Origin: Candidatus Saccharimonadales bacterium
GTDB taxonomy: Bacteria; Patescibacteriota; Saccharimonadia; Saccharimonadales; 2-12-FULL-41-12
Assembly: GCA_036276755.1 (NCBI GenBank)
Contig: DASUOG010000011.1
Location: 3,125 to 67,124, forward strand
Length of the DNA: 64,000 nt
Direction of reading: 5' to 3'
Shown one piece after another: positions 13,929 through 60,446 of the stretch. How positions within the stretch are numbered: position 1 is the stretch's first letter; the number at the start of each line of letters is the position of its first letter. The notes under the pieces were generated by a model. The model searched no databases, was not told where the DNA came from, and saw only the letters and a list, made by a program, of their open reading frames with translations. The translations under genes and the position numbers were made by a program.

Positions 13929-13948
13929 AGCAATTGATTATAAATTAA

Positions 13949-13975
13949 TTAGCACTCGGAAGTCAAGAGTGCCAA
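13949..13975 (-). promoter_or_regulatory. CIRCE-like inverted repeat (HrcA operator) overlapping the clpP promoter
   Basis: The plus strand reads TTAGCACTC-ggaagtcaa-GAGTGCCAA, against the consensus TTAGCACTC-N9-GAGTGCTAA. The spacer contains the -35 element TTGACT on the minus strand. TATAAT lies at 13942..13937, 8 nt before the clpP ATG. Confidence 0.8.
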
Positions 13976-15724: not shown

Positions 15725-15799
15725 AGCTGCATAGTCTAACAGATTAGAAGTTTTTTTGCTAATTACAGCTGCGTCCCGTTCACATCATCGCCCGGACCA

Positions 15800-18605: not shown

Positions 18606-18606
18606 C

Positions 18607-20168: not shown

Positions 20169-20192
20169 AGAATTTTTTGAGACAATAGTTAA

Positions 20193-20252
20193 CTAACCGA
20201 CACGCTCCGGCAATATATGCAGATGATGCTGGTTAGTCATTTGTCTTAACAT
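20193..20252 (-). CDS. candidate leader peptide MLRQMTNQHHLHILPERVG (19 codons)
   Basis: ATG TTA AGA CAA ATG ACT AAC CAG CAT CAT CTG CAT ATA TTG CCG GAG CGT GTC GGT TAG. Three His codons fall within four positions. The 3' part overlaps the antiterminator segment. The ATG lies 7 nt after a TATAGT box. Confidence 0.45.
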   Translation of the reverse strand: MLRQMTNQHHLHILPERVG

Positions 20253-20259
20253 GCGGAAT

Positions 20260-20288
20260 ACTATAATACTTATTATGCTCAAAGTCAA
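20260..20288 (-). promoter_or_regulatory. candidate sigma-70 promoter TTGACT-N17-TATAGT for the his leader
   Basis: Read on the minus strand: TTGACT at 20288..20283 and TATAGT at 20265..20260. Confidence 0.5.
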
Positions 20289-20344
20289 TTATAGTTCTAT
20301 AAAATATAATGTACTTTTGCGTAAATTTATTATATATTATAAAA

Positions 20345-21037: not shown

Positions 21038-21140
21038 GGCAGCGCTCCGGTTTAGCCGTGTGGCTCTAACCGTTCGGAAGTAAAGGGACCGCGCGCAAAA
21101 TGAGTAATATGTTGTGGGTAGTAGGAAAGGGTCATGCATG

Positions 21141-21170
21141 AAAAAACATCAGAGACAATCTGATGTTTTT
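21141..21170. terminator. bidirectional rho-independent terminator
   Basis: AAAA-AACATCAGA-gacaa-TCTGATGTT-TTT: a perfect 9-bp stem with an A-run on one side and a T-run on the other. It lies between the plus-strand orphan gene and the 3' end of tRNA-Leu. Confidence 0.7.
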
Positions 21171-21172
21171 CA

Positions 21173-21257
21173 TGGTGGGCGAGAAAGGACTTGAACCTTC
21201 ACGCCTTGCGGCACTAGTTCCTAAGACTAGCGTGTCTACCAATTCCACCACTCGCCC
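21173..21257 (-). tRNA. tRNA-Leu, anticodon UAG, class II long variable arm, encoded CCA
   Basis: The reverse complement reads GGGCGAG-TG-GTGGAATTGGTAGACAC-G-CTAGT-CTTAGGA-ACTAG-TGCCGCAAGGCGT-GAAGGTTCAAGTCCTTC-T-CTCGCCC-A-CCA. It has a 7-bp acceptor stem, the GTTCAAGTC T-loop, and the anticodon loop CT-TAG-GA. Confidence 0.93.
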
Positions 21258-21287
21258 ATTTATTAAGTTCCTTCAATATACCATAAA

Positions 21288-22415: not shown

Positions 22416-22476
22416 AATTATTTTATTATATCATTTTTTTGTAAAAAATCAATCAAGGCAGGTCTCAGTTTTTGCT

Positions 22477-22968
22477 TTATTTCTGCTGTAAAGTTTCGTA
22501 GGTAAGACAGGTTTCTTGTGTACCCAGCATAAGAAAAGCCCGCGTATATGTTACGGCTTCACCTAAGACTCTGATTGTTTCACCTTTTTCAACATCGTCA
22601 AAAGATTGTGGCTCCCCCTCTTGTGAATAGGCTTTGCTTTCTATACTTTTTGATGGCAGGCCGTAGCGCCCATCTGTACATATTTTTATAGTTCCGTCCG
22701 GGTTCCTGGCTATTAAGTCCGATGCCATAAAATCGTCGCTCGGGATTCTTATCCTGTTTGGTATTAAATTAAGAGACCCAGCCTTAGGATCAATCCTTGC
22801 TACCTGGCCTACAATATCAAATTTATCAGGAGTATCAGTTTTAGATGCCAATACAATGCCACCCAGAGCCCCTATTGTTCCTACCAGAGCAAGCAAGGTG
22901 GCTAGAGTAGTAGGCTCCTTCTCTTTTTTATCGTAAAGTTTAAATTTTTCTTTCAGCTTTTCGATCAT
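22477..22968 (-). CDS. hypothetical membrane-anchored 163-aa protein
   Basis: A single N-terminal TM segment (LATLLALVGTIGALGGIVLA) followed by a soluble domain. TATAAT lies 7 nt upstream of the ATG. Confidence 0.75.
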   Translation of the reverse strand: MIEKLKEKFKLYDKKEKEPTTLATLLALVGTIGALGGIVLASKTDTPDKFDIVGQVARIDPKAGSLNLIPNRIRIPSDDFMASDLIARNPDGTIKICTDGRYGLPSKSIESKAYSQEGEPQSFDDVEKGETIRVLGEAVTYTRAFLMLGTQETCLTYETLQQK

Positions 22969-22976
22969 AATATGTA

Positions 22977-23555
22977 TTATAATATATTTTTATAGTTTTG
23001 TCTACTATACGGTTCCCTCGTCTTTGTTAAGGGTTTATAAAAAATTAACATGGAATCACCATAATTCTTCTGCTTGATTATGCTCAGTCCCTTCAGTTCA
23101 AAAGGGTGCAGCCCGCCGGGAATATTGACGACGAATATCCCGGTAGGTGCCAGATGTTTAGCTAATTTTTGGAGCAAGGTTATTTTCAGTTGATCGAACG
23201 GCGGATCACAGAGAATGAGATCGAATTTCTGCTCCGGGTTATTATCGCTCCATCCGCCAGAATTAGCTCTAACGGATTTAATCTTATCGTTAATTTTTAA
23301 TTGTTTAACGTTATCAGTGATAGTTTTAACAGCATTTTTATCAATATCTATGGACGTGGCGTGCTCTGCCCCGCGGCTGACTGCCTCAAAAGATAATGCA
23401 CCGCTGCCGGCAAACGCATCCAGTACGGTCAACCCTTCTATGTCGCCAAGCGCTGAGAAAAGACCGCCGCGGACCTTTTCGCTCATCGGATGCGTCCTGT
23501 GACCTTTCGGCGCGTCAAATCGTCTGCCTCCCAAGCTGCCGGAGATTATCCTCAT
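22977..23555 (-). CDS. rsmD: 16S rRNA (guanine966-N2)-methyltransferase
   Basis: RsmD-type N-terminus (MRIISGSLGGRRF...HPMSEKVRGGLF), SAM motif LDAFAGSGALSFEA, and DPPF. Confidence 0.9.
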   Translation of the reverse strand: MRIISGSLGGRRFDAPKGHRTHPMSEKVRGGLFSALGDIEGLTVLDAFAGSGALSFEAVSRGAEHATSIDIDKNAVKTITDNVKQLKINDKIKSVRANSGGWSDNNPEQKFDLILCDPPFDQLKITLLQKLAKHLAPTGIFVVNIPGGLHPFELKGLSIIKQKNYGDSMLIFYKPLTKTREPYSRQNYKNIL

Positions 23556-23562
23556 ATTTTTA

Positions 23563-24252
23563 CTATACGCTACTTAGCGATAAGCCGAGCGGAGAGTCCG
23601 CCGGAACCGTCAATGTCAGCTCGTCTCGCCGGGCATTGACCTCGTCTTCAACAATTTTAAGCGCGTCCGGGTCACTTGCATAAATAGGGGGTGGTGTGAA
23701 GTCAAGCCATCGTTCAGTACCGTCCACGTCAAATGCAAGCGAATTAGCCAGCACATCCGACGCTACTACTTCACCATCTTCGTTTGGAAAAGCCCTGACC
23801 AAAGCCTTCCTTGCGGATTCACTGGCGGCGGTCTCTTCAATCGGCAATTTGCCGCCATAGGTTGCGTCTTCTGTAATAAGTGCGGCCGGGTTATCGGCAT
23901 CTTCCACAGCCAATAAGATAACAAAGGCGGGCACCTTTTTCCTAAGGGACGGCGCTCTTCTGACGATCTCGTCGATGGCAGGAAGTTCATCGCGCAACTT
24001 CTCCATAGGATCACTTTTATCCCGGGGTATTTTAATCGCCAAGTCCCGGCTTATTGGGAAGCGTATGGTTCCTAATGGAGTCAAGGCTAAGCTCTGGCCC
24101 ATGCCTATCACGCCTGAACCGATGCTTTGTACTCTATAGCTGTCACTGGCTCCAAGACGTTTGCCGGGTTTACGGGAGGCTAGTTCTTGCCAGGAGCGGT
24201 TTAGATAGGCAGCCGCCTCAACGCACTTCTCCAGATATGGATATTCGGCCAT
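23563..24252 (-). CDS. hypothetical 229-aa protein between recG and rsmD
   Basis: I placed the start at MAEYPYLEK (ATG 24252), with TAATAT 7 nt upstream. The track start at 24288 would overlap recG. No recognisable domain. Confidence 0.7.
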   Translation of the reverse strand: MAEYPYLEKCVEAAAYLNRSWQELASRKPGKRLGASDSYRVQSIGSGVIGMGQSLALTPLGTIRFPISRDLAIKIPRDKSDPMEKLRDELPAIDEIVRRAPSLRKKVPAFVILLAVEDADNPAALITEDATYGGKLPIEETAASESARKALVRAFPNEDGEVVASDVLANSLAFDVDGTERWLDFTPPPIYASDPDALKIVEDEVNARRDELTLTVPADSPLGLSLSSV

Positions 24253-24284
24253 TTTATTTATATTACAATATTTTGGTAATAAAA

Positions 24285-26318: not shown

Positions 26319-26320
26319 GA

Positions 26321-27574
26321 TCAGCCAAGTTCGATTATGGCGTATTTGTTCTTGCCTCTTTTGATAATCGCATGGCCGGCGGCGACTTCATCGGTCTTTT
26401 TAAGAGAGTAGTTTTCATCTATTGTTTTGCCATTGAGTGAAATGGCGCCTTGAGCGAACATCCGTCGGGCCTCGCTATTGGAGGTCACCAAACCCGTGGC
26501 AACCAGAACGGAGATCAAGTTCTCCCCTGTTTTAGTGTTGTATACAGGCAGAAAACCTTTCATGGTTGAGATGTCTTTGGCAGTCAGTCCGCCGTAATCG
26601 GCCGAACCGAACAGGCAAGCGTTAATACGCTCAATGGATTCGGTCTCTTCCTGACCGTGCACAAGCTTAGTAACTTCATGGGCAAGTACCTTTTGGGCTT
26701 GACGGCGGCTTGGATCTTTCTTGAATTCAGTAATTATACTTTCTACTTCATTTCTTGGCAGCAATGTATAAATTTTCAGGTAATCCGCAGCGCTGTCATC
26801 GTCAAGGTTCAGCCAGAACTGATAAAAGTCAAACGGGCCGGTCTTGTTAGCATCGAGCCAGACAGCACCTTCTTCGGTTTTGCCGAATTTTTCGCCGGTC
26901 GATTTGTTGATTACCAGCGGCGCTGACCAAATATGAGCCTCTTTGCCTTCAATACGCCGGATAAGTTCTACGCCGGCGATGCTGTTGCCCCACTGGTCGG
27001 AACCGCAGACCTGGAGCGTAACGCCCTTCTCTTTGAAAAGATGCAGGAAGTCATAGCCCTGGATAAGCGAATAACTGAATTCCGCGTAGCTGATGCCGCT
27101 GCCATCCTCGCCCAGCCGGGACTGTACGAATTCTCGTCCGAGCATCTGGCGCAACGGTACATGCTTGCCGACATCCCTTAGGAAATCTATGTATTTTATA
27201 TTCTTGAACCATTCCTGATTATCTACTATCTCGAACTTTTCGTGAGCAAAAATCGTCTTGTACTGTTTGATTATCGTTTCTTTGTTCTTCTCTATATCCT
27301 CCTTGCTTAGGAGCTGTCTTTCCTTGGTTTTGCCGTCAGGGTCACCTATCACCCCAGTGGCTCCGCCGACCAGCAATACCGCTCTGTGTCCGTGGTCGAT
27401 GAAATGTCGGACCATCATGGCGATAGCCAGATTACCTATGGTCATTGAGTCCGAGCTCGGGTCTACACCCCAGTAAAACGTGAATTTCTTTTTATCGAGT
27501 TCAGACGTGTCTCCAAGCGTAGTTTGGTGCGCAAAACCGCGCCAAATCAATTCTTCGGATAAAGCTGTAGCCAT
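26321..27574 (-). CDS. tyrS: tyrosine--tRNA ligase
   Basis: Class I TyrRS with the KMSKS-type KFGKT motif and a C-terminal S4 domain. I placed the start at MATALSEEL (ATG 27574), with TATACT 6 nt upstream. The track start at 27679 is rejected. Confidence 0.94.
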   Translation of the reverse strand: MATALSEELIWRGFAHQTTLGDTSELDKKKFTFYWGVDPSSDSMTIGNLAIAMMVRHFIDHGHRAVLLVGGATGVIGDPDGKTKERQLLSKEDIEKNKETIIKQYKTIFAHEKFEIVDNQEWFKNIKYIDFLRDVGKHVPLRQMLGREFVQSRLGEDGSGISYAEFSYSLIQGYDFLHLFKEKGVTLQVCGSDQWGNSIAGVELIRRIEGKEAHIWSAPLVINKSTGEKFGKTEEGAVWLDANKTGPFDFYQFWLNLDDDSAADYLKIYTLLPRNEVESIITEFKKDPSRRQAQKVLAHEVTKLVHGQEETESIERINACLFGSADYGGLTAKDISTMKGFLPVYNTKTGENLISVLVATGLVTSNSEARRMFAQGAISLNGKTIDENYSLKKTDEVAAGHAIIKRGKNKYAIIELG

Positions 27575-27681
27575 GACGCTAGTATAGCGAAAACTCATGT
27601 TGCGATGAACTAAAAATGCTATAATAAAGGTCTCAACTGATAATGAATTTACCGTTTTTAAGGAGTTAGTCGTAAACAAGC

Positions 27682-30681: not shown

Positions 30682-30686
30682 CCTTC

Positions 30687-31376
30687 TTAAATAACTTTCG
30701 CGAATATCATCTTACCGGACTCGGTCTGGTGATAACGGCTTATTTCGACATCGACAGTCTTGCCGATCAGCCGGTACGCGTTCTCAACCACGACCATGGT
30801 GCCGTCTTCCAGATAACCCACGCCTTGATTCCTGCCGCTTCCCTTTTGCACTATCTTAACTTTTTTCTTCTCGCCGGGCAGGATAAGCGGCCGCATGGTT
30901 AGCGCCAACTCGTTGATGTTAAGGACTTTGACACCTTCTACCGTAGCTACCTTGTTAAGGTTATAGTCGGTCGTGTAAAGGTCCGCTGACAGTTTCTTAG
31001 CCAGGCGGATAAGTTTGTCATCGGTAGCCTTCTCGTCGGGAAATTCCTGCCGGTCTATAGTAACCGTACAATGTTTATTTTCCTGCAGTCTGTTAGCCAC
31101 ATCCAGCCCGAAGCGGGCCCGTTCGCGTTTTTGCGAATCGCGGCCGTCGGCTAATAGCTGAAGTTCTTTCAGGATGAATTTCGGTATTACCAGCTCGCCA
31201 TGTACGAAACCAGCGTTCACCAGCTCGATTATCCGGCCGTCGATAAGGGCGCAACTATCAAGGATGAGTTTTTTGTTCTTGGCCATGCGTACGGCGCTCC
31301 CGGCCGTCCGTTTGTAGAACAATAAGGCTATGATGCCCAGTAGCAGTAATGTTTGGATTATATCTATTATTTCCAT
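30687..31376 (-). CDS. yacL: PIN and TRAM domain membrane protein (YacL-like)
   Basis: N-terminal TM segment, PIN core (LILDSCALIDGRI, TTDYNLNKVA) and C-terminal TRAM domain (GKTVDVEISRYHQTESGKMIFA). It occupies the conserved position after radA. Confidence 0.85.
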   Translation of the reverse strand: MEIIDIIQTLLLLGIIALLFYKRTAGSAVRMAKNKKLILDSCALIDGRIIELVNAGFVHGELVIPKFILKELQLLADGRDSQKRERARFGLDVANRLQENKHCTVTIDRQEFPDEKATDDKLIRLAKKLSADLYTTDYNLNKVATVEGVKVLNINELALTMRPLILPGEKKKVKIVQKGSGRNQGVGYLEDGTMVVVENAYRLIGKTVDVEISRYHQTESGKMIFAKVI

Positions 31377-31383
31377 GAGTTAC

Positions 31384-32733
31384 CTATTTCTTTAAGTATG
31401 TATTAAGTGCTTCTTTTATGTTTGTAACCGGCTTTAGGATCTTGTCGGCCTTTCCTGTCAGCTTTGGCCCTATCACCGTGTCGAATCCGAGCTTTTTGGC
31501 TTCGGCTATGCGCTTATCGCCAAAGTTAACCCGGCGGACTTCGCCGGAGAGGCCGACTTCGCCGAACACCACCGCATTCCCTTTGAGCTGCAAGCCTTTG
31601 GCGGCCGAACCGATAGCCATGCATATCGCAAGATCCGCCGCCGGTTCGCTGATTCTGATGCCGCCGACGATATTGATGTAGATGTCCTGATCGGCGAGGT
31701 TCAACTTGGTGCGTCTTTCCAGCATGGCTACCAGCAGATTGACGCGGTTAAGGTCTATTCCGCTGGCGGCACGCTTAGGATAACCGTATGACGTTTTGTT
31801 GACCAAGGCCTGGACTTCGACCAATACCGGCCGCATGCCCTCCATGGTCGCCAATACTACCGATCCGTCGCTTTCCTGTCGTTCGGCTAATAAGCTGGCC
31901 GACGGGTTTTCTACTTGAACCAAGCCTTCGTTTTTCATCTCGAATATGCCCGCCTCATTGGTAGAGCCGAAACGGTTTTTGACGCTTCTGAGCAGTTTGA
32001 ATCCGCCGTAGCGGTCACCCTCCAGATTCAGTACTACATCAACCACATGCTCCAGGATTTTCGGTCCGGCTATCGAACCTTCTTTCGTAACATGACCGAC
32101 CAGAACAACCGCCGTATTCGCTCGTTTAGCTGCGTTCATTATCAGATGCGTGCTGTTGGTAATCTGGCTCACACTGCCGGCTGACGATGCCACGGCACCG
32201 ACCGTCATGGTCTGGATAGAATCAACGAACACGACGTCATAATCTTTCGAAGAAATGGTAACCGCGATGTCATCGGCGCTGGTAGATGTAGCCAAAGCCA
32301 GTTTGGAATTATCAACACCCAATCTATTGGCCCGTAAAGCTATCTGGTGCGCCGATTCCTCGCCGCTGACATATAAGACAGAGTTGTTTTTGGCAATGTT
32401 AGCAGCCGCTTGGAGTAACAAGGTGCTTTTACCGATTCCCGGCTGACCGGCGGTTAAGCAGATGCCACCTCGGACAAAGCCGCCGCCCAAGACATTATCG
32501 AAGTCTTTGATCCCGCTGGAAATCCGGCTCGAGGTTTCTTTTGATTTGGCATTTTTGGCTTCAATTGTTTTAAGAACATCCCCGGAACCAGCAGAGCCGC
32601 CGACGCTGACCAGCCCCGGTTCTTCCTGGATGGTGTTCCATTCACCGCACACGCTGCATCTCCCTGCCCATGCCGAATGCTGTGCGCCGCAGTTACTGCA
32701 GACGAACCTGGACGTTTGTTTTTTGGCTGCCAT
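31384..32733 (-). CDS. radA: DNA repair protein RadA/Sms
   Basis: Zn finger (CSNCGAQHSAWAGRCSVCGEW), Walker A (GQPGIGKST), the KNRFG motif and a Lon-like C-terminal domain. Confidence 0.96.
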   Translation of the reverse strand: MAAKKQTSRFVCSNCGAQHSAWAGRCSVCGEWNTIQEEPGLVSVGGSAGSGDVLKTIEAKNAKSKETSSRISSGIKDFDNVLGGGFVRGGICLTAGQPGIGKSTLLLQAAANIAKNNSVLYVSGEESAHQIALRANRLGVDNSKLALATSTSADDIAVTISSKDYDVVFVDSIQTMTVGAVASSAGSVSQITNSTHLIMNAAKRANTAVVLVGHVTKEGSIAGPKILEHVVDVVLNLEGDRYGGFKLLRSVKNRFGSTNEAGIFEMKNEGLVQVENPSASLLAERQESDGSVVLATMEGMRPVLVEVQALVNKTSYGYPKRAASGIDLNRVNLLVAMLERRTKLNLADQDIYINIVGGIRISEPAADLAICMAIGSAAKGLQLKGNAVVFGEVGLSGEVRRVNFGDKRIAEAKKLGFDTVIGPKLTGKADKILKPVTNIKEALNTYLKK

Positions 32734-32759
32734 TACAGTCTAGTGTAACATTGACCGAA

Positions 32760-33227
32760 TTATTCCGACGGGGGATTCTCGGGAGGATTTGTTTCTACTT
32801 CGCTAAGCACCCCCCGTACATAATCCTCGCTTGCCTCGCCTATGCGCGGTATCATACCCAAAGTGCCCTCCCTGACCGCTTTATAAAGGCCATTGTAAGA
32901 CAGGGTAGCGCCATCGATGGCAATATTGTATGGGAACTGCTCAAGGTCATCGGTTGGCTCCCGGAAAGTCCAGGCATTTTTAATCAGAGAATTCCAAGTC
33001 ATGGTAGCCACGCGACTTGACACGTCAGGATTACTTTCTGCATAGCCCTTAAAATAATCTTCATCTATCGGTATATCCGTGTCGTCCTCGGCTTTTACGT
33101 TAATCCCCATCGCCCTCCATATCCTGACCATCCGGTTCAACTGTGATAAACCCGCCTTGGACAAACCCTCACCGGAAAGAATCAGACGCGACGGTACACT
33201 CTCAAATCCATCTTTAAGATTGGCCAT
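32760..33227 (-). CDS. hypothetical 155-aa protein
   Basis: TATAAT lies 9 nt upstream of the ATG. No recognisable domain. Confidence 0.7.
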   Translation of the reverse strand: MANLKDGFESVPSRLILSGEGLSKAGLSQLNRMVRIWRAMGINVKAEDDTDIPIDEDYFKGYAESNPDVSSRVATMTWNSLIKNAWTFREPTDDLEQFPYNIAIDGATLSYNGLYKAVREGTLGMIPRIGEASEDYVRGVLSEVETNPPENPPSE

Positions 33228-33267
33228 AAGGTTACTATTATACTGTTATTTTGACGGATAAGCAATA

Positions 33268-36754: not shown

Positions 36755-36770
36755 GCCCCTATTATACCAA

Positions 36771-36797
36771 TTAGCACTCAATATGCAAGAGTGCCAA
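36771..36797 (-). promoter_or_regulatory. CIRCE-like inverted repeat (HrcA operator) overlapping the clpC promoter
   Basis: The plus strand reads TTAGCACTC-aatatgcaa-GAGTGCCAA. The minus-strand spacer contains the -35 element TTGCAT, followed by 16 nt and then TATAAT at 36766..36761. Confidence 0.8.
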
Positions 36798-38201: not shown

Positions 38202-39710
38202 CTATTTTTCGGGTTCGGTTTCGCGTTCGGGATATAATCCGGTTTCCCTGATAGCTTCCGCCCCTTCGTTCAGAGCCTGTTCAAATTGGCTTCTGGCTAA
38301 TTTTAATTCCCCCTCCAATCTTTCGATCCGGTCATACGCCCGGCTAGCTCTGGCGGTAGCGAACCACATATTTTGCCGGGAACGTTCCGCTTCAGTCTGA
38401 GCGCGAAGCTCCGGATCCCTGGCTATCCTTACCGCCTGAAGCGCCCGTCGGAGCGCGGCTCCGCCCCATGCGCCGCCGTATACGTCGTTTTTTAAATACT
38501 CTTCTATTTCCTTAGGCAGACGTTCCAGTAGTAAGCTGCCTCTTACGAAAGCTATCTCGCCGGCTTCCTGCTTGGCTTTTATCTCTTCAAACCACCGGTG
38601 TTGGAGCTTTAGCTGCTCGTCTGTCCATTGCGGAATATCGCCTTTTACTTCTCTATCTGCCTGCTCCGTTCCAGCTTGTGACTCCGCATATACGCTCAAG
38701 TCAAAGGCATATCGTCTTTTCGTAGCGATGTATAATTTGTCAATCGCATAGGTTTCGATCTGACGGATACGTTCCTTTGTCAAACCAAGCCTGTATCCAG
38801 CCTCGTCTAGAGTATGCACGTCGGCGTATCTACGGCCCAGGACATCGAACAGTAACTCGGCGCCGGATCTTTCGCGGCCCGTCGGGGATTTGTCTTCAGC
38901 GAATTCTTCATCAGAGAACTCATCCACAGATGGTGCTTCTTCAGACATTTCTTCTTCTAAAGCTTCCTCTTTGGATAGGCCCAAGCCGGTGCGAAGATTT
39001 AATACTTTGCGTTCCCTATGGGTAAGTCCGGCTTGCTCCAGCCATTGATCCAGCAATAACTTATCAAGTATTTCATCCTCGCTTATTCCGTAACTTTCCG
39101 CCGCCACCAAACGGTTAAGCGTACCTGTCTCGCTCTCCGGATCCTCAACGGGCTCCACTGCTTCTTCTACGGGCGAGAAGTCCCCCGGCGGCAGGCCGTG
39201 TAGCACCTTTTTACTCTTACTGCTCACCGGTGGCAGAAGCTTGGATTCCGTCATCAGGTGATCCATGATTTTTGCGACAGCATTGGCGAATATAGTCACA
39301 GCGTTCTTTTTGGCAGGCTTTTTTACCCTTCTAGCGCCTTCGAGCGTCGCCAGACAACCCATATGCATGACGTCTTCCAGGGTAAGGTCATCTCGTGTGG
39401 CGATTTCATCCCTCTGGGCGTATTTATATATCCATGACAGGCGCGTGGCGATCAAGGCCTCGCTGGCCGTTGGATCGCCAGCTTTGGCACCGGCTATCAT
39501 CTCTTGCATCTCCGCCAGTGGGACACCAGGTCGCGGGCGGAAATGCAAACGTGCATCCGGCATTATGCCGGTAATTGCTTGGATCTGCCGCGCCTGGGCA
39601 TCCAAATCATCTTCAAACTCTACTTGCGGCATCGGCAACTCACGCCGATGAACCATAGGTTCGGCTTCAAATTGCACCTCCGGCGAAGGAATATCGTAAT
39701 AAGTCCCCAT
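38202..39710 (-). CDS. divergent sigma-70-like protein with an acidic insertion and a ~190-aa C-terminal extension
   Basis: Region 4.1/4.2-like segments (LTHRERKVLNLRTGL ... HTLDEAGYRLGLTKERIRQIETYAIDKLY). A degenerate region 2-like segment (ALIATRLSWIYKYAQR...LEDVMHMGCLATLEGARRV...TIFANAVAKIMDHL). I placed the start at MGTYYDIPS (ATG 39710). The track start at 39818 is rejected. Confidence 0.7.
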   Translation of the reverse strand: MGTYYDIPSPEVQFEAEPMVHRRELPMPQVEFEDDLDAQARQIQAITGIMPDARLHFRPRPGVPLAEMQEMIAGAKAGDPTASEALIATRLSWIYKYAQRDEIATRDDLTLEDVMHMGCLATLEGARRVKKPAKKNAVTIFANAVAKIMDHLMTESKLLPPVSSKSKKVLHGLPPGDFSPVEEAVEPVEDPESETGTLNRLVAAESYGISEDEILDKLLLDQWLEQAGLTHRERKVLNLRTGLGLSKEEALEEEMSEEAPSVDEFSDEEFAEDKSPTGRERSGAELLFDVLGRRYADVHTLDEAGYRLGLTKERIRQIETYAIDKLYIATKRRYAFDLSVYAESQAGTEQADREVKGDIPQWTDEQLKLQHRWFEEIKAKQEAGEIAFVRGSLLLERLPKEIEEYLKNDVYGGAWGGAALRRALQAVRIARDPELRAQTEAERSRQNMWFATARASRAYDRIERLEGELKLARSQFEQALNEGAEAIRETGLYPERETEPEK

Positions 39711-39717
39711 GTATATA

Positions 39718-39769
39718 TTATTACAATAATATATCAAGTTTGTCAATATATTCTTCCCTGTTGTACAAT
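39718..39769. promoter_or_regulatory. back-to-back divergent promoters with overlapping -35 boxes
   Basis: Minus strand: TTGACA (39746..39741)-N17-TAATAA (39723..39718), then 7 nt to the ATG at 39710. Plus strand: TTGTCA (39740..39745)-N18-TACAAT (39764..39769), then 6 nt to the ATG at 39776. Confidence 0.5.
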
Positions 39770-39775
39770 GCCAGG

Positions 39776-42325
39776 ATGAGCAAAAAGGTGAAGAGACTTT
39801 ATTCGGATATAAAACCAAACCATTACGACCTGGGGCTGTCTTTGGACATAGATAAACGGCTTTTCTCCGGAACGGTGAAGATCAGGTTTAAAAAGACAGG
39901 CCGGCCTAGCAAACGGATAACATTTCACCAAAAAGACCTTAAGTTCACCGCCACTAAATTGAAAAGCCTTTCTAAAGATAAAGAGATCGTCATCAAGCGT
40001 ATAAATACCCAAAGAAGCCTGGATGAAGTAAGACTGCACAGTGACGAAACACTGTTTCCGGGGGAGTACGAAGCGTATCTGGAATTCGCCGGTCGGATAA
40101 CCGACCCGATGCACGGCCTGTACCCCTGCTATTTCGACCACGAAGGCAAGCAGAAAGTCATGCTGGCTACCCAATTCGAAAGCCATCATACCCGCGAAGT
40201 CTTCCCGTGTATAGACGAGCCGGAAGCCAAAGCAACGTTCCAATTATCGCTGGATGCCCCGGCCGGTTTAACCATCCTTTCCAACACCCCGCCGAAAGAT
40301 CAAGCCAAGTCCGGGCAGCGGCTTATGACCACCTTTGAAAAAACACCGGTTATGAGTTCCTATCTGTTGGCTTTCATCATCGGCGAACTCCACTGCGTAG
40401 AAGCAGAGACGAAGACCGGCATTACCATGCGTACCTGGGCGACGGTTGCCCAGCCCGAAAAATTCCTGGAATACGCGAACAATGAAGCAGTGTCGGCCTT
40501 GGAGTTCTTTAGCGATTATTTCCAAACCCCTTATCCGCTTGTCAAATGCGACCAGGTAGCCCTGCCCGATTTTGAGAGCGGAGCCATGGAAAACTGGGGA
40601 CTTATCACTTACCGGGAGATTGCGCTACTGGCCGATCCGGACAACCGTTCGCTGTCCACCGAACAGTATATTTCGATGGTCATCGCCCACGAGATATCGC
40701 ATCAGTGGTTCGGCAACCTAGTTACCATGAAGTGGTGGGATGACCTCTGGCTGAACGAAAGCTTCGCGAGCCTGATGGAGCATATCGCGTTGGATCATAC
40801 CCACCCAGACTGGCACTGGTGGGAACACTATGTAATATCCGATGTCCTGTCCGCGGCAAACCGGGATATATATAAGGATGTCCAGCCGGTCGGCGTGAAT
40901 GTATCGCATCCGGACGACATACACACGCTATTCGATCCGGCCATCGTCTATGCCAAAGGCGGCCGTTTGCTCAAGATGATGCGCGAGTTCATAGGTGATA
41001 CGGCTTTTAGAAAAGGATTGAAGAATTATTTTACGCAGAATGCTTATAAAAACGCTGAACGAAACGATCTATGGGAAGCATTATCTTCCAGTAGCAATGC
41101 CGCGGTCTCATCTCTTATGACACCTTGGATCGAACAATCTGGCATGCCGGTACTTACGGTAAAAAAAACCGGCAATACCATCAGTTTGAGCCAGGAAAGG
41201 TTTTTGCTCGAGGGAGAAGACAGTGGGGCAATCTGGCCCATCGCTCTGCTTTCGGACAAGCCGCTGGCTGAAAAACTCCTTGTTAAGAAAACGGACGAAT
41301 TAAGCGCGAGCAAACCGGTAATTTTTAATGTATTGGGCAGCGGACATTATTTGGTCAATTATAAAAACAGGGATGAAAAACAGGCCCTGGCCAAGGCTAT
41401 CGCCGATCGATCGATACCTACCGAAGGACGGATTATCCGTCTGAACGATATACTCCTGCTGGCTAGAAGGGGTGACACCTCACTGATTGAAGCTCTGGAC
41501 ATAATCAAGAATTGTCAGAACGAGCCGCGGGAAGCAGTGTGGAATATGATGAGCCGGGTGGTCGGGCTTGTACGTATGCTTACCGAGGGTGACGAAAAAA
41601 CCGAGGCCGGGATCAAGAAATTAAGGGTCAAAATGGCGAACAATCAGTATACAAGACTCGGCTGGGAACAAAAGCCCGGCGAAGATCCGAATGACACTCT
41701 GCTGAGACAAACCGTGATCGGGATAATGCTCGCCGGAGAATACAAAGAGGTTATAGATAAATCTATAGCCATGTACGAGCAGACCAAAGATATAAGCCGT
41801 CTGCCAGCAGAAATCAGAACCGTGATATTAACCGCGGTCGTGAGATTCGGTAAAGCTAAAGAAATAGATAACCTGCTAAAAATATATGAGCAATCCGCCA
41901 ACCCGGACCTCAAACTTGCCATCAGTCTAGCATTATGCGAAACGCGCGATCCGGCAATCGGCCAAAAGATAATCAAACGCACTATCTCAGAAGACGGAAT
42001 CGCCCGTCCACAGGATATCTTCCGGTGGTACGCTTACCTCATGCGTAACCAATATACTCGGCAAACCGCCTGGCAGTGGATGACCATTGATTGGCAAAGA
42101 CTGGAAAAGCTTTTCGGAGGCTCCAAGAGCTTGGATTACCTGCCGGTATATTCAGCCGCGCCTCTGACCACATTCGAGTGGTATGAAAAATACGAGGACT
42201 TTTTCAAGCCGCTGCTCCATAGACGCCAATTGGAACGGAATATCAAAATAGGCTTTTCGGAAATCAAAGCACGCATAGAGTGGCGCAAGCGCGAGGAACC
42301 GAAACTAAAGCGATATTTCGACTAG
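39776..42325 (+). CDS. pepN: aminopeptidase N (M1 family)
   Basis: The GAMENWG exopeptidase motif and HEISHQWFGNLVT-X-WLNESFA zinc site, plus an ERAP1-like C-terminal domain. I placed the start at MSKKVKRLY (39776). Confidence 0.93.
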   Translation: MSKKVKRLYSDIKPNHYDLGLSLDIDKRLFSGTVKIRFKKTGRPSKRITFHQKDLKFTATKLKSLSKDKEIVIKRINTQRSLDEVRLHSDETLFPGEYEAYLEFAGRITDPMHGLYPCYFDHEGKQKVMLATQFESHHTREVFPCIDEPEAKATFQLSLDAPAGLTILSNTPPKDQAKSGQRLMTTFEKTPVMSSYLLAFIIGELHCVEAETKTGITMRTWATVAQPEKFLEYANNEAVSALEFFSDYFQTPYPLVKCDQVALPDFESGAMENWGLITYREIALLADPDNRSLSTEQYISMVIAHEISHQWFGNLVTMKWWDDLWLNESFASLMEHIALDHTHPDWHWWEHYVISDVLSAANRDIYKDVQPVGVNVSHPDDIHTLFDPAIVYAKGGRLLKMMREFIGDTAFRKGLKNYFTQNAYKNAERNDLWEALSSSSNAAVSSLMTPWIEQSGMPVLTVKKTGNTISLSQERFLLEGEDSGAIWPIALLSDKPLAEKLLVKKTDELSASKPVIFNVLGSGHYLVNYKNRDEKQALAKAIADRSIPTEGRIIRLNDILLLARRGDTSLIEALDIIKNCQNEPREAVWNMMSRVVGLVRMLTEGDEKTEAGIKKLRVKMANNQYTRLGWEQKPGEDPNDTLLRQTVIGIMLAGEYKEVIDKSIAMYEQTKDISRLPAEIRTVILTAVVRFGKAKEIDNLLKIYEQSANPDLKLAISLALCETRDPAIGQKIIKRTISEDGIARPQDIFRWYAYLMRNQYTRQTAWQWMTIDWQRLEKLFGGSKSLDYLPVYSAAPLTTFEWYEKYEDFFKPLLHRRQLERNIKIGFSEIKARIEWRKREEPKLKRYFD

Positions 42326-42744: not shown

Positions 42745-42769
42745 GATAACCGATTATATCATCTGAAAA

Positions 42770-43369: not shown

Positions 43370-43465
43370 CTATCGCTTTATTGTAGCAAAGCTCGAAGAC
43401 AATATATTTGCAAATCATCGAACAATGGGAGTATCATCAAAATATTAAAAAGGAGGATAATAACA

Positions 43466-46199: not shown

Positions 46200-46271
46200 C
46201 GGTAGTTATTATACATTGACATAAGCTTTTTAAACTATGAACAAAACATTTTTAGCGCTAAGCTGTATTTT

Positions 46272-46772: not shown

Positions 46773-46810
46773 GCGATAAATGTTAACATGTTTATAGATA
46801 AATTCGTACA

Positions 46811-52765: not shown

Positions 52766-52788
52766 GTCTTAAATTATAGACTATCTTG

Positions 52789-53682: not shown

Positions 53683-53692
53683 AATTTAACTA

Positions 53693-55129
53693 TTATACCT
53701 TAAGCCGCTTTCTTATTAATTTCTGGGCTAAGGCCGGGTCAGCCTTGCCTTTACTCTCTTTCATCACTTGCCCTACTAAGAAACCTACCGCTTTCATCTC
53801 GCCGCGCCGCACATCTTCAGCCGCTTTCGGATTGTCATTTATGATCTTCGTGACGATTTTTTCGACTACGTCCTCATCACTCAATGTCTGATTATCGCCG
53901 ATGAACTTGTCGGCATCAAAAGTATCGGCTTCAAACAGTTCTTTGACGCCCTCTTTGGCCTTGGTCGAAACAAGCCTGCCTTCATCAAAAGCTTTTGCCA
54001 GCGCTAACAGTCCATCGATTTTGGCCTCGTTTAATCTCGCATAATCATCGATGAAGCTCGGGATGAAATTAATAAGCCAGTCAAACAATTTTGAAATGGA
54101 ACCCGGCGACGCTTCGTCTTTCTCAAGAACGGCGACGGCGAAATCCACTGATTGCGGATTATTGAAAAGCGTGTCCAGATCCGCTGTTGATAAGTGCCCG
54201 GCACTGACCAGTTTATCCCTGATGGTATAGAAGTTCTTTTTGTCAAAATCTTTTTTAACCTTTTCCAGATATTCATCGGATAGGTTCAAGGGCGGGATAT
54301 CAGGATCCGGGAAGTAACGGTAATCGTGTGCTTCTTCTTTGCCGCGTTGGCTCGTTGTCTTTTGCTTGGCATCATCCCAGCCACGGGTTTCCTGGATTAT
54401 GGTCTGTCCTTTTTCGAGCATTTCGGTTTGTCGCTTTATTTCGTATTCAACCGTTTTTTCCACGGCCTTGAAACTGTTAAGATTCTTGGTTTCACTGCGG
54501 GTGCCCAGTTTCTTCGGATCATCGCTCACACTGACGTTCACATCGAACCGCATATTTCCGTGGTAAAGGTCTACGTCGCTGATATCAGCGTATTTCATGA
54601 GCAGATATAGCTTTTGCGCGTAAGCCTTGGCTTCCTTGGCGCTATGAATGTCCGGTTCGGACACGATTTCCAACAGCGGCGTTCCTGCCCGGTTAAGATC
54701 GACTAAACTGTAATCCTTTGCCGCCGGATGAGTGGTCTTGCCGGCGTCTTCTTCCAGATGAGCCCTTACTATGCCGATCTTCTTGGTCTTGCTGTCAACT
54801 TCTATATCAACATGGCCGCCAATGACTATAGGGTCGGAGAACTGACTTATCTGATAACCCTTAGGTAGGTCCGGGTAAAAATAATGTTTACGGTCGAATT
54901 TGGAAAATTTCTGCGGTTTTACACCCAGCGCAAAGCCGGCTTTGCATGAAAGCTCCACCGCCCGAGCATTCAGTGACGGCAGGGCTCCGGGCAGGCCAAG
55001 ACATATATGGCTAATCAAGGTGTTGGGTTCGGCAGCCCTAGCGTCATTGGAGACGGCGGCAAACAGCTTGGTCTTAGTTTTCAGCTGTACATGACATTCT
55101 ATACCGATGGTTGGCACGTAAGCGCTCAC
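53693..55129 (-). CDS. gatB: Asp/Glu-tRNA amidotransferase subunit B
   Basis: 478 aa with the GatB N-terminus (PTIGIECHVQL) and a YqeY-like C-terminal domain. GTG start overlapping the upstream stop by 1 nt. Confidence 0.96.
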   Translation of the reverse strand: MSAYVPTIGIECHVQLKTKTKLFAAVSNDARAAEPNTLISHICLGLPGALPSLNARAVELSCKAGFALGVKPQKFSKFDRKHYFYPDLPKGYQISQFSDPIVIGGHVDIEVDSKTKKIGIVRAHLEEDAGKTTHPAAKDYSLVDLNRAGTPLLEIVSEPDIHSAKEAKAYAQKLYLLMKYADISDVDLYHGNMRFDVNVSVSDDPKKLGTRSETKNLNSFKAVEKTVEYEIKRQTEMLEKGQTIIQETRGWDDAKQKTTSQRGKEEAHDYRYFPDPDIPPLNLSDEYLEKVKKDFDKKNFYTIRDKLVSAGHLSTADLDTLFNNPQSVDFAVAVLEKDEASPGSISKLFDWLINFIPSFIDDYARLNEAKIDGLLALAKAFDEGRLVSTKAKEGVKELFEADTFDADKFIGDNQTLSDEDVVEKIVTKIINDNPKAAEDVRRGEMKAVGFLVGQVMKESKGKADPALAQKLIRKRLKV

Positions 55130-57293: not shown

Positions 57294-57345
57294 ATTATAT
57301 CTTACAGACAAACGCATTGACAAACATCATAAAAAACCCTATGAT
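57294..57345. promoter_or_regulatory. back-to-back divergent promoters with overlapping -35 boxes
   Basis: Minus strand: TTGTCA (57323..57318)-N18-TATAAT (57299..57294) for gatC. Plus strand: TTGACA (57317..57322)-N17-TATGAT (57340..57345), 36 nt upstream of the ATG at 57382. Confidence 0.45.
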
Positions 57346-60416: not shown

Positions 60417-60446
60417 ATAGTCAATTGTATCAACTGTGGGGATTAA

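What the first reader, a model, noticed from the sequence alone, without database searches (positions are those of the whole stretch)
39711..39775. Pervasive leaderless gene architecture: a -10-like hexamer 6-9 nt upstream of the start codon at about 20 genes
I read the sequence directly upstream of operon-first ATGs and found the same arrangement repeatedly.

**Genes with the hexamer-N6-9-ATG arrangement** (hexamer, then spacing to the ATG):
- clpP: TATAAT, N8
- clpC: TATAAT, N6
- tyrS: TATACT, N6
- pepN: TACAAT, N6
- sigma-like gene: TAATAA, N7
- yraN: TATAAT, N8
- orf155 (33227): TATAAT, N9
- radA: TACACT, N8
- gatC: TATAAT, N9
- pilB: TATAAT, N8
- tig: TAGACT, N8
- 2H-like gene (22415): TATAAT, N9
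- orf163 (22968): TATAAT, N7
- rsmD: TATAGT, N6
- orf229 (24252): TAATAT, N7
- uvrB: TACAAT, N7
- DUF948 gene: TATAAT, N7
- galU: TATAAT, N9
- his leader ORF: TATAGT, N7

Several of these also have a TTGnnn box 16-18 nt upstream. With transcription starting about 7 nt after the -10 box, these mRNAs would begin at or within a few nucleotides of the ATG, with no room for a Shine-Dalgarno site.

**Genes with a clear leader and strong SD:** the DUF1761 gene (AGGAGG), orf445 (AAGGAG), PfkB (AAAGGTGG), rpsL (AAGGAG), nusA and dnaE.

Two initiation modes therefore appear to coexist, and the mode may mark different gene classes or origins.
Basis: seen in the sequence. Interest (0 to 1): 0.6.

Follow-up and report, generated by a model that had tools for sequence, protein, structure and literature searches.

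The report
Leaderless genes throughout a Saccharibacteria genome
In this fragment of a Saccharibacteria (TM7) genome, about four genes in ten have a promoter -10 box only 6-9 bases before the start codon, so their mRNAs should begin at the start codon with no ribosome-binding leader; this design is well known in other bacteria but I found no report of it for this lineage.

Summary

**Enrichment.** Using a naive first-ATG rule, 15 of 50 complete genes have a match of at least 5/6 to TATAAT at spacing N6-9. Shuffled upstream regions give 2.6±1.5, other spacings give 2-5, and an E. coli control gives 0 of 42.

**Promoter signature.**
- Genes with the hexamer almost never have a Shine-Dalgarno (SD) site (5/60 against 67/106, p=1e-12).
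- 36% carry the extended -10 TG, against a 6% background.
- They show a TTG -35 at about 17 nt.
- They use only ATG.
- At clpP and clpC, HrcA CIRCE operators lie on or just upstream of these promoters.

**Conservation.** In 12 related Saccharimonadales loci, orthologues of pepN, tig, clpP, rsmD, pilB and rnhB keep the box at a fixed spacing while the bases between it and the ATG vary. rpoB, rpoC, rpsL, rpsG and nusA stay SD-type.

**The flagged 65 bp** is a minimal divergent pair of such promoters whose -35 boxes overlap.

**Verdict.** These are most likely sigma-70-type promoters that produce leaderless or nearly leaderless mRNAs. This is the known "group C / TA-led" architecture, so it is a new member of a known kind. 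No transcription start sites have been mapped. The suggestion that the two modes mark different gene origins is not supported.

The parts
39711..39775 (.). 65-bp divergent intergenic spacer that holds two back-to-back predicted leaderless promoters, for pepN (+) and the sigma-r4 gene (-)
   Evidence: Sequence read; hexamer coordinates. The two -35 hexamers overlap by 5 bp.
39740..39745 (+). pepN -35 box, TTGTCA (5/6); an 18-nt spacer follows
39764..39769 (+). pepN -10 box, TACAAT; N6 to ATG 39776
   Evidence: All 5 relatives keep TAnnnT at N6-8.
39776..42325 (+). pepN (M1 aminopeptidase, 849 aa), predicted leaderless
   Evidence: An independent gene call gives the same start. Orthologue alignments begin at residues 1-6.
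39741..39746 (-). -35 box TTGACA (6/6) of the sigma-r4 gene
39717..39723 (-). -10 region of the sigma-r4 gene: AATAAT (N6, TGn upstream, 18-nt spacer) or TAATAA (N7, 17-nt spacer)
38202..39710 (-). Gene with Sigma70 region 4 (502 aa), predicted leaderless
   Evidence: An independent call gives 502 aa.
13937..13966 (-). clpP promoter: TTGACT, 18 nt, TATAAT, N8, ATG 13928
   Evidence: The relatives L007-L011 keep TAAAAT-N7; TTGACG-17 nt upstream of it was read in L008-L011.
13949..13975 (.). CIRCE (HrcA operator) covering the -35 and spacer of the clpP promoter
   Evidence: 1 mismatch to TTAGCACTC-N9-GAGTGCTAA. Two matches in the window against 0.02 expected.
36761..36766 (-). clpC -10 box, TGgTATAAT; N6 to ATG 36754
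36771..36797 (.). CIRCE 4 nt upstream of the clpC -10 box
15733..15738 (-). tig -10 box, TGtTAGACT; N8 to ATG 15724
   Evidence: TGnTAnnnT-N8 is conserved in L007-L012 while the 8 intervening nt vary. 120 homologues are 422-452 aa long (nearly all 424-432) and cover 96-100% of the query.
22425..22430 (-). orf375 -10 box, TATAAT (TGn); N9 to ATG 22415
22976..22981 (-). orf163 -10 box, TATAAT; N7 to ATG 22968. The rsmD stop codon (22977-22979) lies inside it, and the -35 TAGACA (22999-23004) lies inside the rsmD coding sequence.
23562..23567 (-). rsmD -10 box, TATAGT; N6 to ATG 23555. The stop codon of orf229 (23563-23565) lies inside it.
   Evidence: A box is conserved in 6 of 7 relatives.
24260..24265 (-). 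orf229 -10 box, TAATAT N7 (or TGTAAT N9), to ATG 24252
   Evidence: Conserved in L010.
27581..27586 (-). tyrS -10 box, TATACT; N6 to ATG 27574
   Evidence: Relatives start 8 codons after the first ATG, with TATACT at N6 or N10.
32742..32747 (-). radA -10 box, TGtTACACT; N8 to ATG 32733
33237..33242 (-). orf155 -10 box, TATAAT; N9 to ATG 33227
42753..42758 (-). yraN (UPF0102) -10 box, TGaTATAAT; N8 to ATG 42744
43380..43385 (-). rnhB -10 box, TGcTACAAT; N10 to ATG 43369
   Evidence: 4 of 5 relatives have TAnnnT at N6-10.
46208..46213 (-). pilB -10 box, TATAAT; N8 to ATG 46199
   Evidence: 4 of 5 relatives have a box at N7-9.
46259..46264 (+). SpoU methylase -10 box, TAAGCT; N7 to ATG 46272
   Evidence: All 4 relatives in which an ATG could be placed have a TAnnnT box at N6-10: TATACT N7 in two, TACAAT N6 in one, and TATTGT N8 / TATATT N10 in L006.
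46799..46804 (+). CAP-domain gene -10 box, TAAATT; N6 to ATG 46811 (weak)
52773..52778 (-). orf94 -10 box, TATAAT; N7 to ATG 52765
53692..53697 (-). galU -10 box, TATAAT; N9 to ATG 53682. The gatB stop codon (53693-53695) lies inside it.
57294..57323 (-). gatC promoter: TTGTCA, 18 nt, TATAAT, N9, ATG 57284
60424..60429 (-). uvrB -10 box, TGaTACAAT; N7 to ATG 60416
20260..20288 (-). Promoter TTGACT, 17 nt, TATAGT; N7 to ATG 20252 of a 19-codon His-rich leader ORF
20193..20252 (-). Predicted leaderless leader ORF, MLRQMTNQHHLHILPERVG*, upstream of the hisS-hisD-hisC operon

Best explanation
The window comes from a Saccharibacteria (TM7, order Saccharimonadales) genome.

Roughly 40% of its genes, and at least half of those with their own upstream region, are preceded by a sigma-70-type promoter. 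Its -10 box (TAtAaT, often TGn-extended, with a weak TTG -35 about 17 nt upstream) ends 6-9 nt before the ATG. RNA polymerase normally starts about 7 nt after the -10 box. These transcripts should therefore begin at the A of the AUG, or at most 1-3 nt upstream of it.

Such leaderless mRNAs have no Shine-Dalgarno site. In other bacteria they are translated by direct binding of a ribosome carrying initiator tRNA to the 5'-terminal AUG. The remaining genes use ordinary SD-led or coupled initiation; these include operon-internal genes and genes such as rpoB, rpoC, rpsL, rpsG, fusA, nusA and dnaE.

The flagged 65 bp is the most compact form of this design: two divergent leaderless promoters whose -35 hexamers overlap.

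Shown here: the motif, its position, its promoter-type features, its exclusivity with SD sites and its conservation. Inferred: the transcription start position and the mode of translation.
For: Taxon: pepN relatives occur only in Saccharimonadales MAGs, and the identical Tig protein is named Candidatus Saccharimonadales.

Positional enrichment:
- Window: 15/50 against 2.6±1.5.
- Relatives with independent gene calls: 24/116 against 4.7±2.0.
- Five further loci: 19/75 against 3.45±1.8.
- E. coli control: 0/42.

Exclusivity with SD sites: 5/60 hexamer genes have an SD duplex of -5 kcal/mol or stronger, against 67/106 of the rest (Fisher 1e-12).

Promoter-specific features:
- TG at -15/-14 in 36%, against a 6% background (p=3e-11).
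- A -35 match of at least 5/6 at 16-18 nt in 18%, against 1.7% (p=2e-8).
- In a position matrix of 85 sites, A at hexamer position 4 in 79% without being imposed, and TTG at -23 to -21.

CIRCE operators occur only at the clpP and clpC promoters: two matches against 0.02 expected. The clpP copy covers the -35 and spacer; the clpC copy ends 4 nt upstream of the -10 box.

Start codons:
- 40/40 ATG in this class in independent calls, against 65/76 elsewhere (p=0.015).
- 17 of 21 genes have no in-frame upstream start codon at all.
- Independent gene calls and orthologue alignments agree on the N-termini.

A pyrimidine precedes the ATG in 75% against 57%, as expected for a Y-1/R+1 transcription start.

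Conservation at fixed spacing with variable intervening bases: tig in 6 of 7 relatives, pepN 5/5, clpP 5/7, rsmD 6/7.

The same signature defines leaderless genes in GeneMarkS-2 group C genomes (PMC6028130) and the TA-led genes of Zheng et al. 2011 (PMC3160421).
Against: - No transcription start site, N-terminal peptide or ribosome-profiling data exist for this organism, so the 5' ends are predicted.
- Spacings of N8-N10 (about half the cases) fit a 1-3 nt leader as well as a true 5'-AUG.
- The generic two-hexamer promoter scan is not enriched over shuffles across the region (26 against 22.7 and 27 against 26.4). The signal therefore lies in position relative to start codons, not in promoter density.
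- At tight same-strand junctions (gaps of 7-10 nt at orf163, rsmD and galU), the hexamer contains the upstream stop codon (TA-TAA-T, TA-TAG-T). It could partly be a by-product, and these genes may also be read from read-through transcripts.
- Orthologous genes in related loci are not independent, so the pooled p-values are inflated.
- In the window itself, start codons were chosen by a first-ATG rule.
Confidence: 0.8

Rival explanations
1. The hexamers are real promoters, but the mRNAs carry very short leaders (about 1-10 nt). Translation would then depend on an SD-independent mechanism other than 5'-terminal AUG recognition, for example entry through an unstructured A/U-rich region aided by S1.
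For: The spacing distribution peaks at N7-N8 and extends to N9-N10, slightly longer than the canonical N6. The discriminator regions are A/T-rich in many cases.
Against: - With N6-N8, a start about 7 nt after the -10 box falls on or within 1-2 nt of the A of the ATG.
- mRNAs with leaders of up to about 5 nt are normally counted as leaderless (established usage; my own knowledge).
- The Y-1/R+1 bias at the ATG (75% pyrimidine at -1) and exclusive ATG use fit a 5'-terminal AUG.
Confidence: 0.1
2. The TA-rich hexamer is not a promoter. It would be a non-SD ribosome-binding or translation-enhancer motif on leadered or polycistronic mRNAs, as in Bacteroidota (GeneMarkS-2 group B).
For: The hexamer also occurs at four same-strand junctions with gaps of 3-10 nt, which could be operon-internal. 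CPR ribosomes are reduced and bS1 is short (PMC9297842).
Against: - A translation motif would not be accompanied by a TG two bases upstream (36% against 6%), a TTG -35 at 17 nt, or CIRCE operators on or just upstream of the promoter.
- In group B genomes the motif precedes all genes, including internal ones (PMC6028130). Here 4 of 18 tight-junction genes carry the hexamer signature (one of them, gatA, is probably chance), and the rest are SD-type (6) or show neither signal (8).
- Strong GGAGG-type SD sites are in use elsewhere in the window, so the anti-SD is functional.
Confidence: 0.05
3. The pattern is an artefact: chance TANNNT matches in A/T-rich intergenic DNA, or start codons that are wrongly placed.
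For: Intergenic DNA is A/T-rich, and TANNNT occurs at many upstream positions. My first-ATG rule mis-set four starts: tyrS, rpsG, rpoC and dnaE.
Against: - Shuffles of the same upstream sequences, other spacings in the same sequences, and an E. coli control all give far fewer hits.
- The result holds with independently called starts in relatives.
- 17 of 21 genes have no alternative upstream start codon.
- N-termini align with orthologues.
- Correcting the starts adds tyrS to the leaderless class rather than removing any gene.
Confidence: 0.03

Closest known systems
GeneMarkS-2 'group C' bacterial genomes, and the 'TA-led' genes of Zheng et al. 2011 (mainly Actinobacteria and Deinococcus-Thermus)
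   Same: - A Pribnow-like TANNNT box 6-8 nt before the start codon of first genes in operons.
- No SD site at those genes.
- SD sites at internal genes and some first genes.
- Both modes coexist in one genome (PMC6028130, PMC3160421).
   Different: - The lineage is Saccharibacteria (CPR/Patescibacteria). No paper I could search names it as leaderless-rich.
- The box is a full TAtAaT with frequent TGn, as described for medium-GC genomes, rather than the bare TAnnnT of high-GC Actinobacteria.
- The fraction in this window (about 42% of genes, 17 of 32 genes with their own upstream region) is at or above the 25-50% of operons reported for group C.
Experimentally mapped leaderless transcriptomes of Mycobacterium tuberculosis, M. 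smegmatis and Deinococcus deserti
   Same: Large fractions of mRNAs start at the start codon, with a -10 TANNNT box directly upstream and no SD site (PMC3898074, PMC4633059; D. deserti as cited in PMC6028130).
   Different: Those cases rest on dRNA-seq, ribosome profiling and proteomics; this one rests on sequence only. As far as I recall, GTG-initiated leaderless mRNAs are also reported in mycobacteria, whereas this class uses ATG only.
Archaeal leaderless genes (GeneMarkS-2 group D)
   Same: The promoter sits at a fixed distance from the start codon, there is no 5' UTR, and SD sites are kept for internal genes.
   Different: The archaeal promoter is a TATA box about 22-26 nt upstream, recognised by TBP/TFB. 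Here a bacterial sigma-70 -10/-35 pair lies 6-9 nt upstream.
Non-SD initiation in Bacteroidota (GeneMarkS-2 group B)
   Same: Many genes lack an SD site and have an A/T-rich motif close to the start.
   Different: In group B the motif precedes all genes, including operon-internal ones, and cannot be a promoter. Here the motif has promoter features and alternates with canonical GGAGG-type SD sites.

Membership tests
Bacterial leaderless gene architecture (GeneMarkS-2 group C / TA-led genes) | A -10 (Pribnow) TANNNT motif sharply localised about 6-8 nt upstream of start codons | tested here: met
   Spacing histograms peak at N6-9 in the window, in L007-L013 and in L002-L006. Counts are 15/50, 24/116 and 19/75, against 2.6, 4.7 and 3.5 in shuffles.
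Bacterial leaderless gene architecture (GeneMarkS-2 group C / TA-led genes) | Those genes lack an SD site, while other genes in the same genome (operon-internal and some first genes) have one | tested here: met
   SD duplex of -5 kcal/mol or stronger in 5/60 hexamer genes against 67/106 others. In the window: 21 leaderless-type, 14 SD-type, 15 neither; genes with overlapping or 1-nt junctions are SD-type or show neither signal.
Bacterial leaderless gene architecture (GeneMarkS-2 group C / TA-led genes) | The mapped transcription start coincides with the start codon (5' UTR of 0 to about 5 nt) | not testable with these tools
   No start-site or RNA-seq data were available for this organism. The TM7x transcriptome preprint does not discuss start sites or UTRs.
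Bacterial leaderless gene architecture (GeneMarkS-2 group C / TA-led genes) | The start codon is AUG (leaderless initiation depends strongly on a 5'-terminal AUG) | tested here: met
   40/40 ATG in this class in independently called relatives, against 65/76 in the rest (p=0.015). Within the window the first-ATG rule makes this test circular.
Sigma-70-type promoter | A -35 TTGACA-like hexamer 16-18 nt upstream of the -10 box, or a TGn extended -10 | tested here: met
   TGn in 36% against 6%. A -35 match of at least 5/6 in 18% against 1.7%. The position matrix shows TTG at -23 to -21. Individual promoters vary: 7 of 22 in the window have a -35 match of at most 2/6.
Sigma-70-type promoter | More promoter-like sites than chance across the region | tested here: not met
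   The generic two-hexamer scan found 26 against 22.7±5.4 and 27 against 26.4±4.8. Only the top-scoring sites and their position next to start codons are non-random.
CIRCE/HrcA heat-shock operator (seen at the clpP and clpC promoters) | Inverted repeat TTAGCACTC-N9-GAGTGCTAA at the promoter of a chaperone or protease gene | tested here: met
   Two matches with 1 mismatch each, at 13949-13975 and 36771-36797, against 0.02 expected. Whether the genome has an hrcA gene was not tested.
His-operon attenuator (leader peptide plus terminator) | A short leader ORF rich in His codons, followed by an intrinsic terminator, upstream of his genes | tested here: inconclusive
   The 19-codon ORF has only 3 His in 4 codons (HHLH). 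A 9-bp stem with 6 GC pairs plus a T-run lies at 20168-20146, and an SD-led 77-aa ORF and hisS follow. Alternative antiterminator pairing was not analysed, and there is no Rfam hit.

The most novel reading that the evidence does not exclude
Saccharibacteria, and perhaps much of the CPR/Patescibacteria, use leaderless initiation as the main mode for transcription units. Promoters are packed into the last codons of the upstream gene, sometimes with the upstream stop codon inside the -10 box, so that most genes are their own leaderless transcription unit. This would be a genome-compaction strategy, possibly tied to the reduced CPR ribosome (short bS1; missing uL30, bL9 and bL32), and it would add a deep-branching third major leaderless-rich bacterial lineage to the debate on whether leaderless initiation is ancestral.
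Probability: 0.3. Interest if true: 0.6.

Novelty: new member of a known kind. Interest (0 to 1): 0.4.

Why it matters
**Annotation.** Gene callers tuned to SD sites mis-place starts in such genomes. One example seen here: in L007 the clpP start was called at a GTG inside the CIRCE operator. Thousands of Saccharibacteria and CPR MAGs are annotated automatically.

**Genetics.** Saccharibacteria have only recently become transformable. Knowing that many native genes are expressed from a -10 box followed by about 7 nt and then ATG, with no ribosome-binding site, tells people how to build expression cassettes and where promoters lie, including inside upstream coding sequence.

**Evolution and mechanism.** A leaderless-rich, deep-branching lineage with a reduced ribosome is a useful comparison for how SD-independent initiation is maintained. 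Orthologues such as clpP, clpC, tig and rplS switch between the two modes within a single order, which gives natural experiments.

Tried and rejected
- **Generic promoter scan**. The total count is no higher than in shuffles, so it is useless as a density test. Only the top hits coincide with gene starts.
- **Rfam scan of the window**. It found only one tRNA: no T-box, riboswitch or leader family that could explain the upstream regions.
- **Different origins for the two classes.** GC and GC3 do not differ, so I rejected this.
- **Literature**. Searches combining leaderless, Shine-Dalgarno or TATAAT with Saccharibacteria, Patescibacteria, CPR or TM7 found no statement of this feature.
  - The supplements of the GeneMarkS-2 paper and of the NAR 2025 promoter paper are not held, so I could not check whether any TM7 genome was assigned to group C.
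  - For the same reason I could not see what the 188 RNA-seq-inferred TM7x start sites show.
  - The TM7x transcriptome paper (PMID 35975994) is not held, and its preprint says nothing on promoters or UTRs.
- **Contig lookup with the galU protein** found no exact match.
- **First-ATG rule.** It gave wrong starts for tyrS, rpsG, rpoC and dnaE. I corrected them from orthologues and domain content.
- **gatA** (TAAGCT, N5, gap 3). I treat this as a chance hit inside the gatCAB operon.
Full report
**What the window is**

The 64-kb window has 49% GC and is densely packed with genes, most of them on the minus strand. pepN has relatives only in Candidatus Saccharimonadales / Saccharibacteria MAGs. The identical trigger factor is annotated by NCBI as Candidatus Saccharimonadales bacterium. 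The window is therefore a Saccharibacteria (TM7, CPR/Patescibacteria) genome fragment.

**The flagged coordinates**

Positions 39711-39775 are the whole 65-bp spacer between two divergent genes. One is a 502-aa protein with a Sigma70 region 4 domain (ATG 39710, minus strand). The other is the M1 aminopeptidase pepN (ATG 39776, plus strand).

- Plus strand: TTGTCA (39740-39745), 18 nt, TACAAT (39764-39769), 6 nt, ATG.
- Minus strand: TTGACA (39746-39741), 17-18 nt, TAATAA or AATAAT (39723-39717), 7 or 6 nt, ATG.
- The two -35 hexamers overlap by 5 bp, so the spacer is about as short as two back-to-back promoters without leaders can be.

**Checking the observation**

I listed the upstream sequence of every candidate start. 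For tyrS the relevant ATG is 27574, the second ATG of the ORF, and it is where the tyrS orthologues begin. Three further genes show the same arrangement: rnhB, a SpoU methylase and a CAP-domain gene. The leadered examples are also correct.

To avoid choosing starts by the motif, I used a mechanical rule: the first ATG of each codon-scored ORF.

| Test | Observed | Control |
|---|---|---|
| Window, strong hexamer (at least 5/6 of TATAAT, with A2 and T6) at N6-9 | 15 of 50 genes | 2.6±1.5 in 2000 shuffles of the upstream 40 nt (max 9); 2-5 at other spacings |
| All other ATGs in the window, strong hexamer at N5-10 | 2.2% | 32% of gene starts |
| Seven related loci, starts called by the database's own gene caller | 24 of 116 | 4.7±2.0 |
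| Five further loci (my own gene calls) | 19 of 75 | 3.45±1.8 |
| E. coli K-12, 50-kb region, 42 annotated genes | 0 strong hits; 2 weak signatures | |

**Is the hexamer a promoter element?**

Several independent features say it is.

1. *Exclusivity with SD sites.* Only 5 of 60 genes with TANNNT at N5-10 also have a duplex of -5 kcal/mol or stronger with the anti-SD ACCUCCUUU. Among the rest it is 67 of 106 (Fisher 1e-12).
2. *Extended -10.* TG lies at -15/-14 in 36% of these sites, against 6% upstream of all TANNNT in the same sequences (p=3e-11).
3. *-35 box.* A match of at least 5/6 to TTGACA lies 16-18 nt upstream in 18%, against 1.7% (p=2e-8). A position matrix of 85 sites shows TTG exactly at -23 to -21. 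It also shows A at hexamer position 4 in 79%, which my definition did not require.
4. *Operators at the promoters.* The only two CIRCE elements in the window (TTAGCACTC-N9-GAGTGCTAA, 1 mismatch each, 0.02 expected) are at these promoters. One covers the -35 and spacer of the clpP promoter. The other lies 4 nt upstream of the clpC -10 box.
5. *Start context.* The base before the ATG is a pyrimidine in 75% of this class, against 57% of SD genes (p=0.056). This fits the Y-1/R+1 preference of transcription starts.

A translation-enhancer motif would not be expected to show features 2-4.

**Are the start codons right?**

- 17 of the 21 leaderless-type genes in the window have no in-frame start codon of any kind upstream of the ATG. 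Often an in-frame stop lies within 3-24 nt.
- Independent gene calls on Logan contigs of the same organism give the same starts for pepN, the sigma-r4 gene, nusA, yraN, tig, clpP, orf445 and hisC.
- The 120 closest Tig homologues are 422-452 aa long, nearly all 424-432, and cover 96-100% of the 428-aa query.
- Orthologue alignments start at residue 1 for clpP, tig, rsmD, clpC and most pepN and pilB relatives.
- In independently called relatives this class uses ATG 40 times out of 40. GTG and TTG occur 11 times among the 76 other genes (p=0.015).

**Conservation**

- *tig:* the window and six relatives have TGnTAnnnT followed by exactly 8 nt and ATG, and the 8 nt differ in every genome. In L013 the same box lies about 18 nt upstream with AGGA in between, which is a leadered variant.
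- *clpP:* L007-L011 keep TAAAAT-7-ATG. In L008-L011 I read the full TTGACG-17-TAAAAT-7-ATG with the CIRCE half-sites. L012 and L013 have an SD site instead.
- *pepN:* TAnnnT at N6-8 in all five relatives, at 42-65% protein identity.
- *Others:* rsmD keeps the box in 6 of 7, pilB in 4 of 5, rnhB in 4 of 5, and the SpoU methylase in all 4 relatives where an ATG could be placed.
- *SD-type genes:* rpoB, rpoC, rpsL, rpsG and nusA have SD-type upstream regions in every relative that carries them. hisS is SD-type in six of seven.

The mode of initiation is therefore a heritable property of each gene, but it can change. clpC is SD-led in L003, L005 and L006. rplS looks leaderless in three relatives but not in the window.

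**Counts after correcting four starts**

The corrections were tyrS to ATG 27574, rpsG to TTG 3757, rpoC to ATG 8077 and dnaE to TTG 51286.

| Set | Leaderless-type | SD-type | Neither |
|---|---|---|---|
| All 50 complete genes | 21 | 14 | 15 |
| 32 genes with a divergent neighbour or a gap of at least 20 nt | 17 | 8 | 7 |

The 21 do not include the sigma-r4 gene, which has the relaxed hexamer. They do include gatA, which is probably a chance hit. Most of the "neither" group are tightly coupled genes.

Zheng et al. report more than 20-30% of all genes for Actinobacteria and Deinococcus-Thermus (PMC3160421). GeneMarkS-2 reports 25-50% of operons for group C genomes (PMC6028130). This window is at or above those figures, though 64 kb is a small sample.

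**Mechanism**

*Shown:* the motif, its position, its promoter-type features, its exclusivity with SD sites and its conservation.

*Inferred from established knowledge of sigma-70 promoters and leaderless translation:*
- RNA polymerase starts about 7 nt (range 6-10) after the -10 box. The mRNA therefore begins at the A of the AUG for N6-N7, and at the AUG or 1-3 nt upstream for N8-N10.
- Such mRNAs are translated through recognition of the 5'-terminal AUG by a ribosome carrying initiator tRNA, without an SD site.

SD-led initiation is kept for internal operon genes and a set of first genes. GGAGG-type SD sites are present, so the anti-SD is in use.

Three junctions (rsmD, orf163, galU) place the upstream gene's stop codon inside the -10 hexamer (TA-TAG-T, TA-TAA-T), with the -35 inside the upstream coding sequence. 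At these sites the promoter reading is less secure, and read-through transcription with re-initiation is an alternative.

Leaderless-type and SD-type genes do not differ in GC or GC3, and the mode switches between orthologues. Different origins are therefore not supported. A loose link with function exists: transcription and translation machinery genes tend to be SD-led, while proteostasis, repair, tRNA-related and many small unknown genes tend to be leaderless.

**Comparison with what is known**

The signature is exactly the one used to define TA-led genes (PMC3160421) and GeneMarkS-2 group C genomes (PMC6028130). It has been validated experimentally in mycobacteria and Deinococcus (PMC3898074, PMC4633059). 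The kind is therefore known.

What seems new is the lineage. Full-text searches found no paper stating this for Saccharibacteria, TM7, CPR or Patescibacteria. The TM7x transcriptome preprint does not mention promoters or UTRs. A 2025 survey that used 188 RNA-seq-inferred TM7x start sites only notes variable distances between the -10 box and the start site. The relevant supplements are not held, so an unpublished or tabulated group C assignment cannot be excluded.

**Verdict**

It is a new member of a known kind, of moderate interest. Its practical value is for gene-start annotation and for genetic tool design in Saccharibacteria.

Noticed in passing
window 13949-13975 and 36771-36797: The only two CIRCE (HrcA operator) inverted repeats in the window are at the clpP and clpC promoters. 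The clpP copy covers the -35 and spacer; the clpC copy lies 4 nt upstream of the -10 box. This implies HrcA control of the Clp protease genes rather than (or as well as) groESL/dnaK. With no leader, CIRCE could not act at the mRNA level. The element is conserved upstream of clpP in L008-L011.
   Followed up: partly
window 20146-20288 (minus strand): TTGACT-17-TATAGT-N7-ATG drives a 19-codon ORF, MLRQMTNQHHLHILPERVG (20252-20193). A strong terminator hairpin plus T-run follows (20168-20146), then an SD-led 77-aa ORF and hisS-hisD-hisC. This looks like a His attenuator whose leader peptide would itself be translated from a leaderless mRNA. Only 3 His codons are present, and antiterminator pairing was not examined.
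   Followed up: partly
window 39713-39734 (third half-site at 39746-39755): A perfect 10+10 palindrome, ATATATTATT-ac-AATAATATAT, overlaps the -10 box of the sigma-r4 gene and ends 3 nt from its ATG. It occurs once in the window (0.01 expected). A third, 90%-matching half-site lies next to the shared -35 region. It may be an operator for the divergent promoter pair.
   Followed up: partly
window 23562-23567, 22976-22981, 53692-53697: At three tight same-strand junctions, the stop codon of the upstream gene (TAG or TAA) lies inside the -10 hexamer of the next gene (TA-TAG-T, TA-TAA-T). The -35 region lies inside the upstream coding sequence.
   Followed up: partly
window 11634-11660; L007-L013 upstream of rpoB: The GGAG upstream of rpoB lies about 14-21 nt before the ATG in the window and in all relatives. 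This is much further than a normal SD spacing, and an in-frame stop at -15 excludes an earlier start in the window. This conserved long spacing is unexplained.
   Followed up: no
L007 11735; window 27598/27574, 3757, 8077, 51286: Start-codon problems. The database gene caller placed the L007 clpP start at a GTG inside the CIRCE element. In the window, the first-ATG or longest-ORF rules mis-set tyrS, rpsG (TTG), rpoC (ATG 8077, after AAGGAGG) and dnaE (TTG).
   Followed up: yes
L003, L005, L006 (clpC); L012, L013 (clpP); L013 (tig); window 44489 against L003, L004, L006 (rplS): Orthologues switch between leaderless-type and SD-type upstream regions within the order. L003 clpC has both AGGAGG and TATAGT-N6 in front of the same ATG.
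   Followed up: partly
window 13000-32999: Terminator-like hairpins are about twice as frequent as in shuffles (45 against 23.3±5.1). Most lie inside genes. The next 20 kb shows a weaker excess (32 against 23.6±5.2).
   Followed up: no
window 14381-14428 (minus strand): For orf132, located between tig and clpP, TTTACT-17-TATACT ends only 3 nt before ATG 14396. The independent caller starts the gene at ATG 14381 (127 aa). In relatives the orthologue is clearly leaderless-type (L009 TATATT-N9; L010 TTGACA-17-TGTAAT-N7). The start in the window is unresolved.
   Followed up: no
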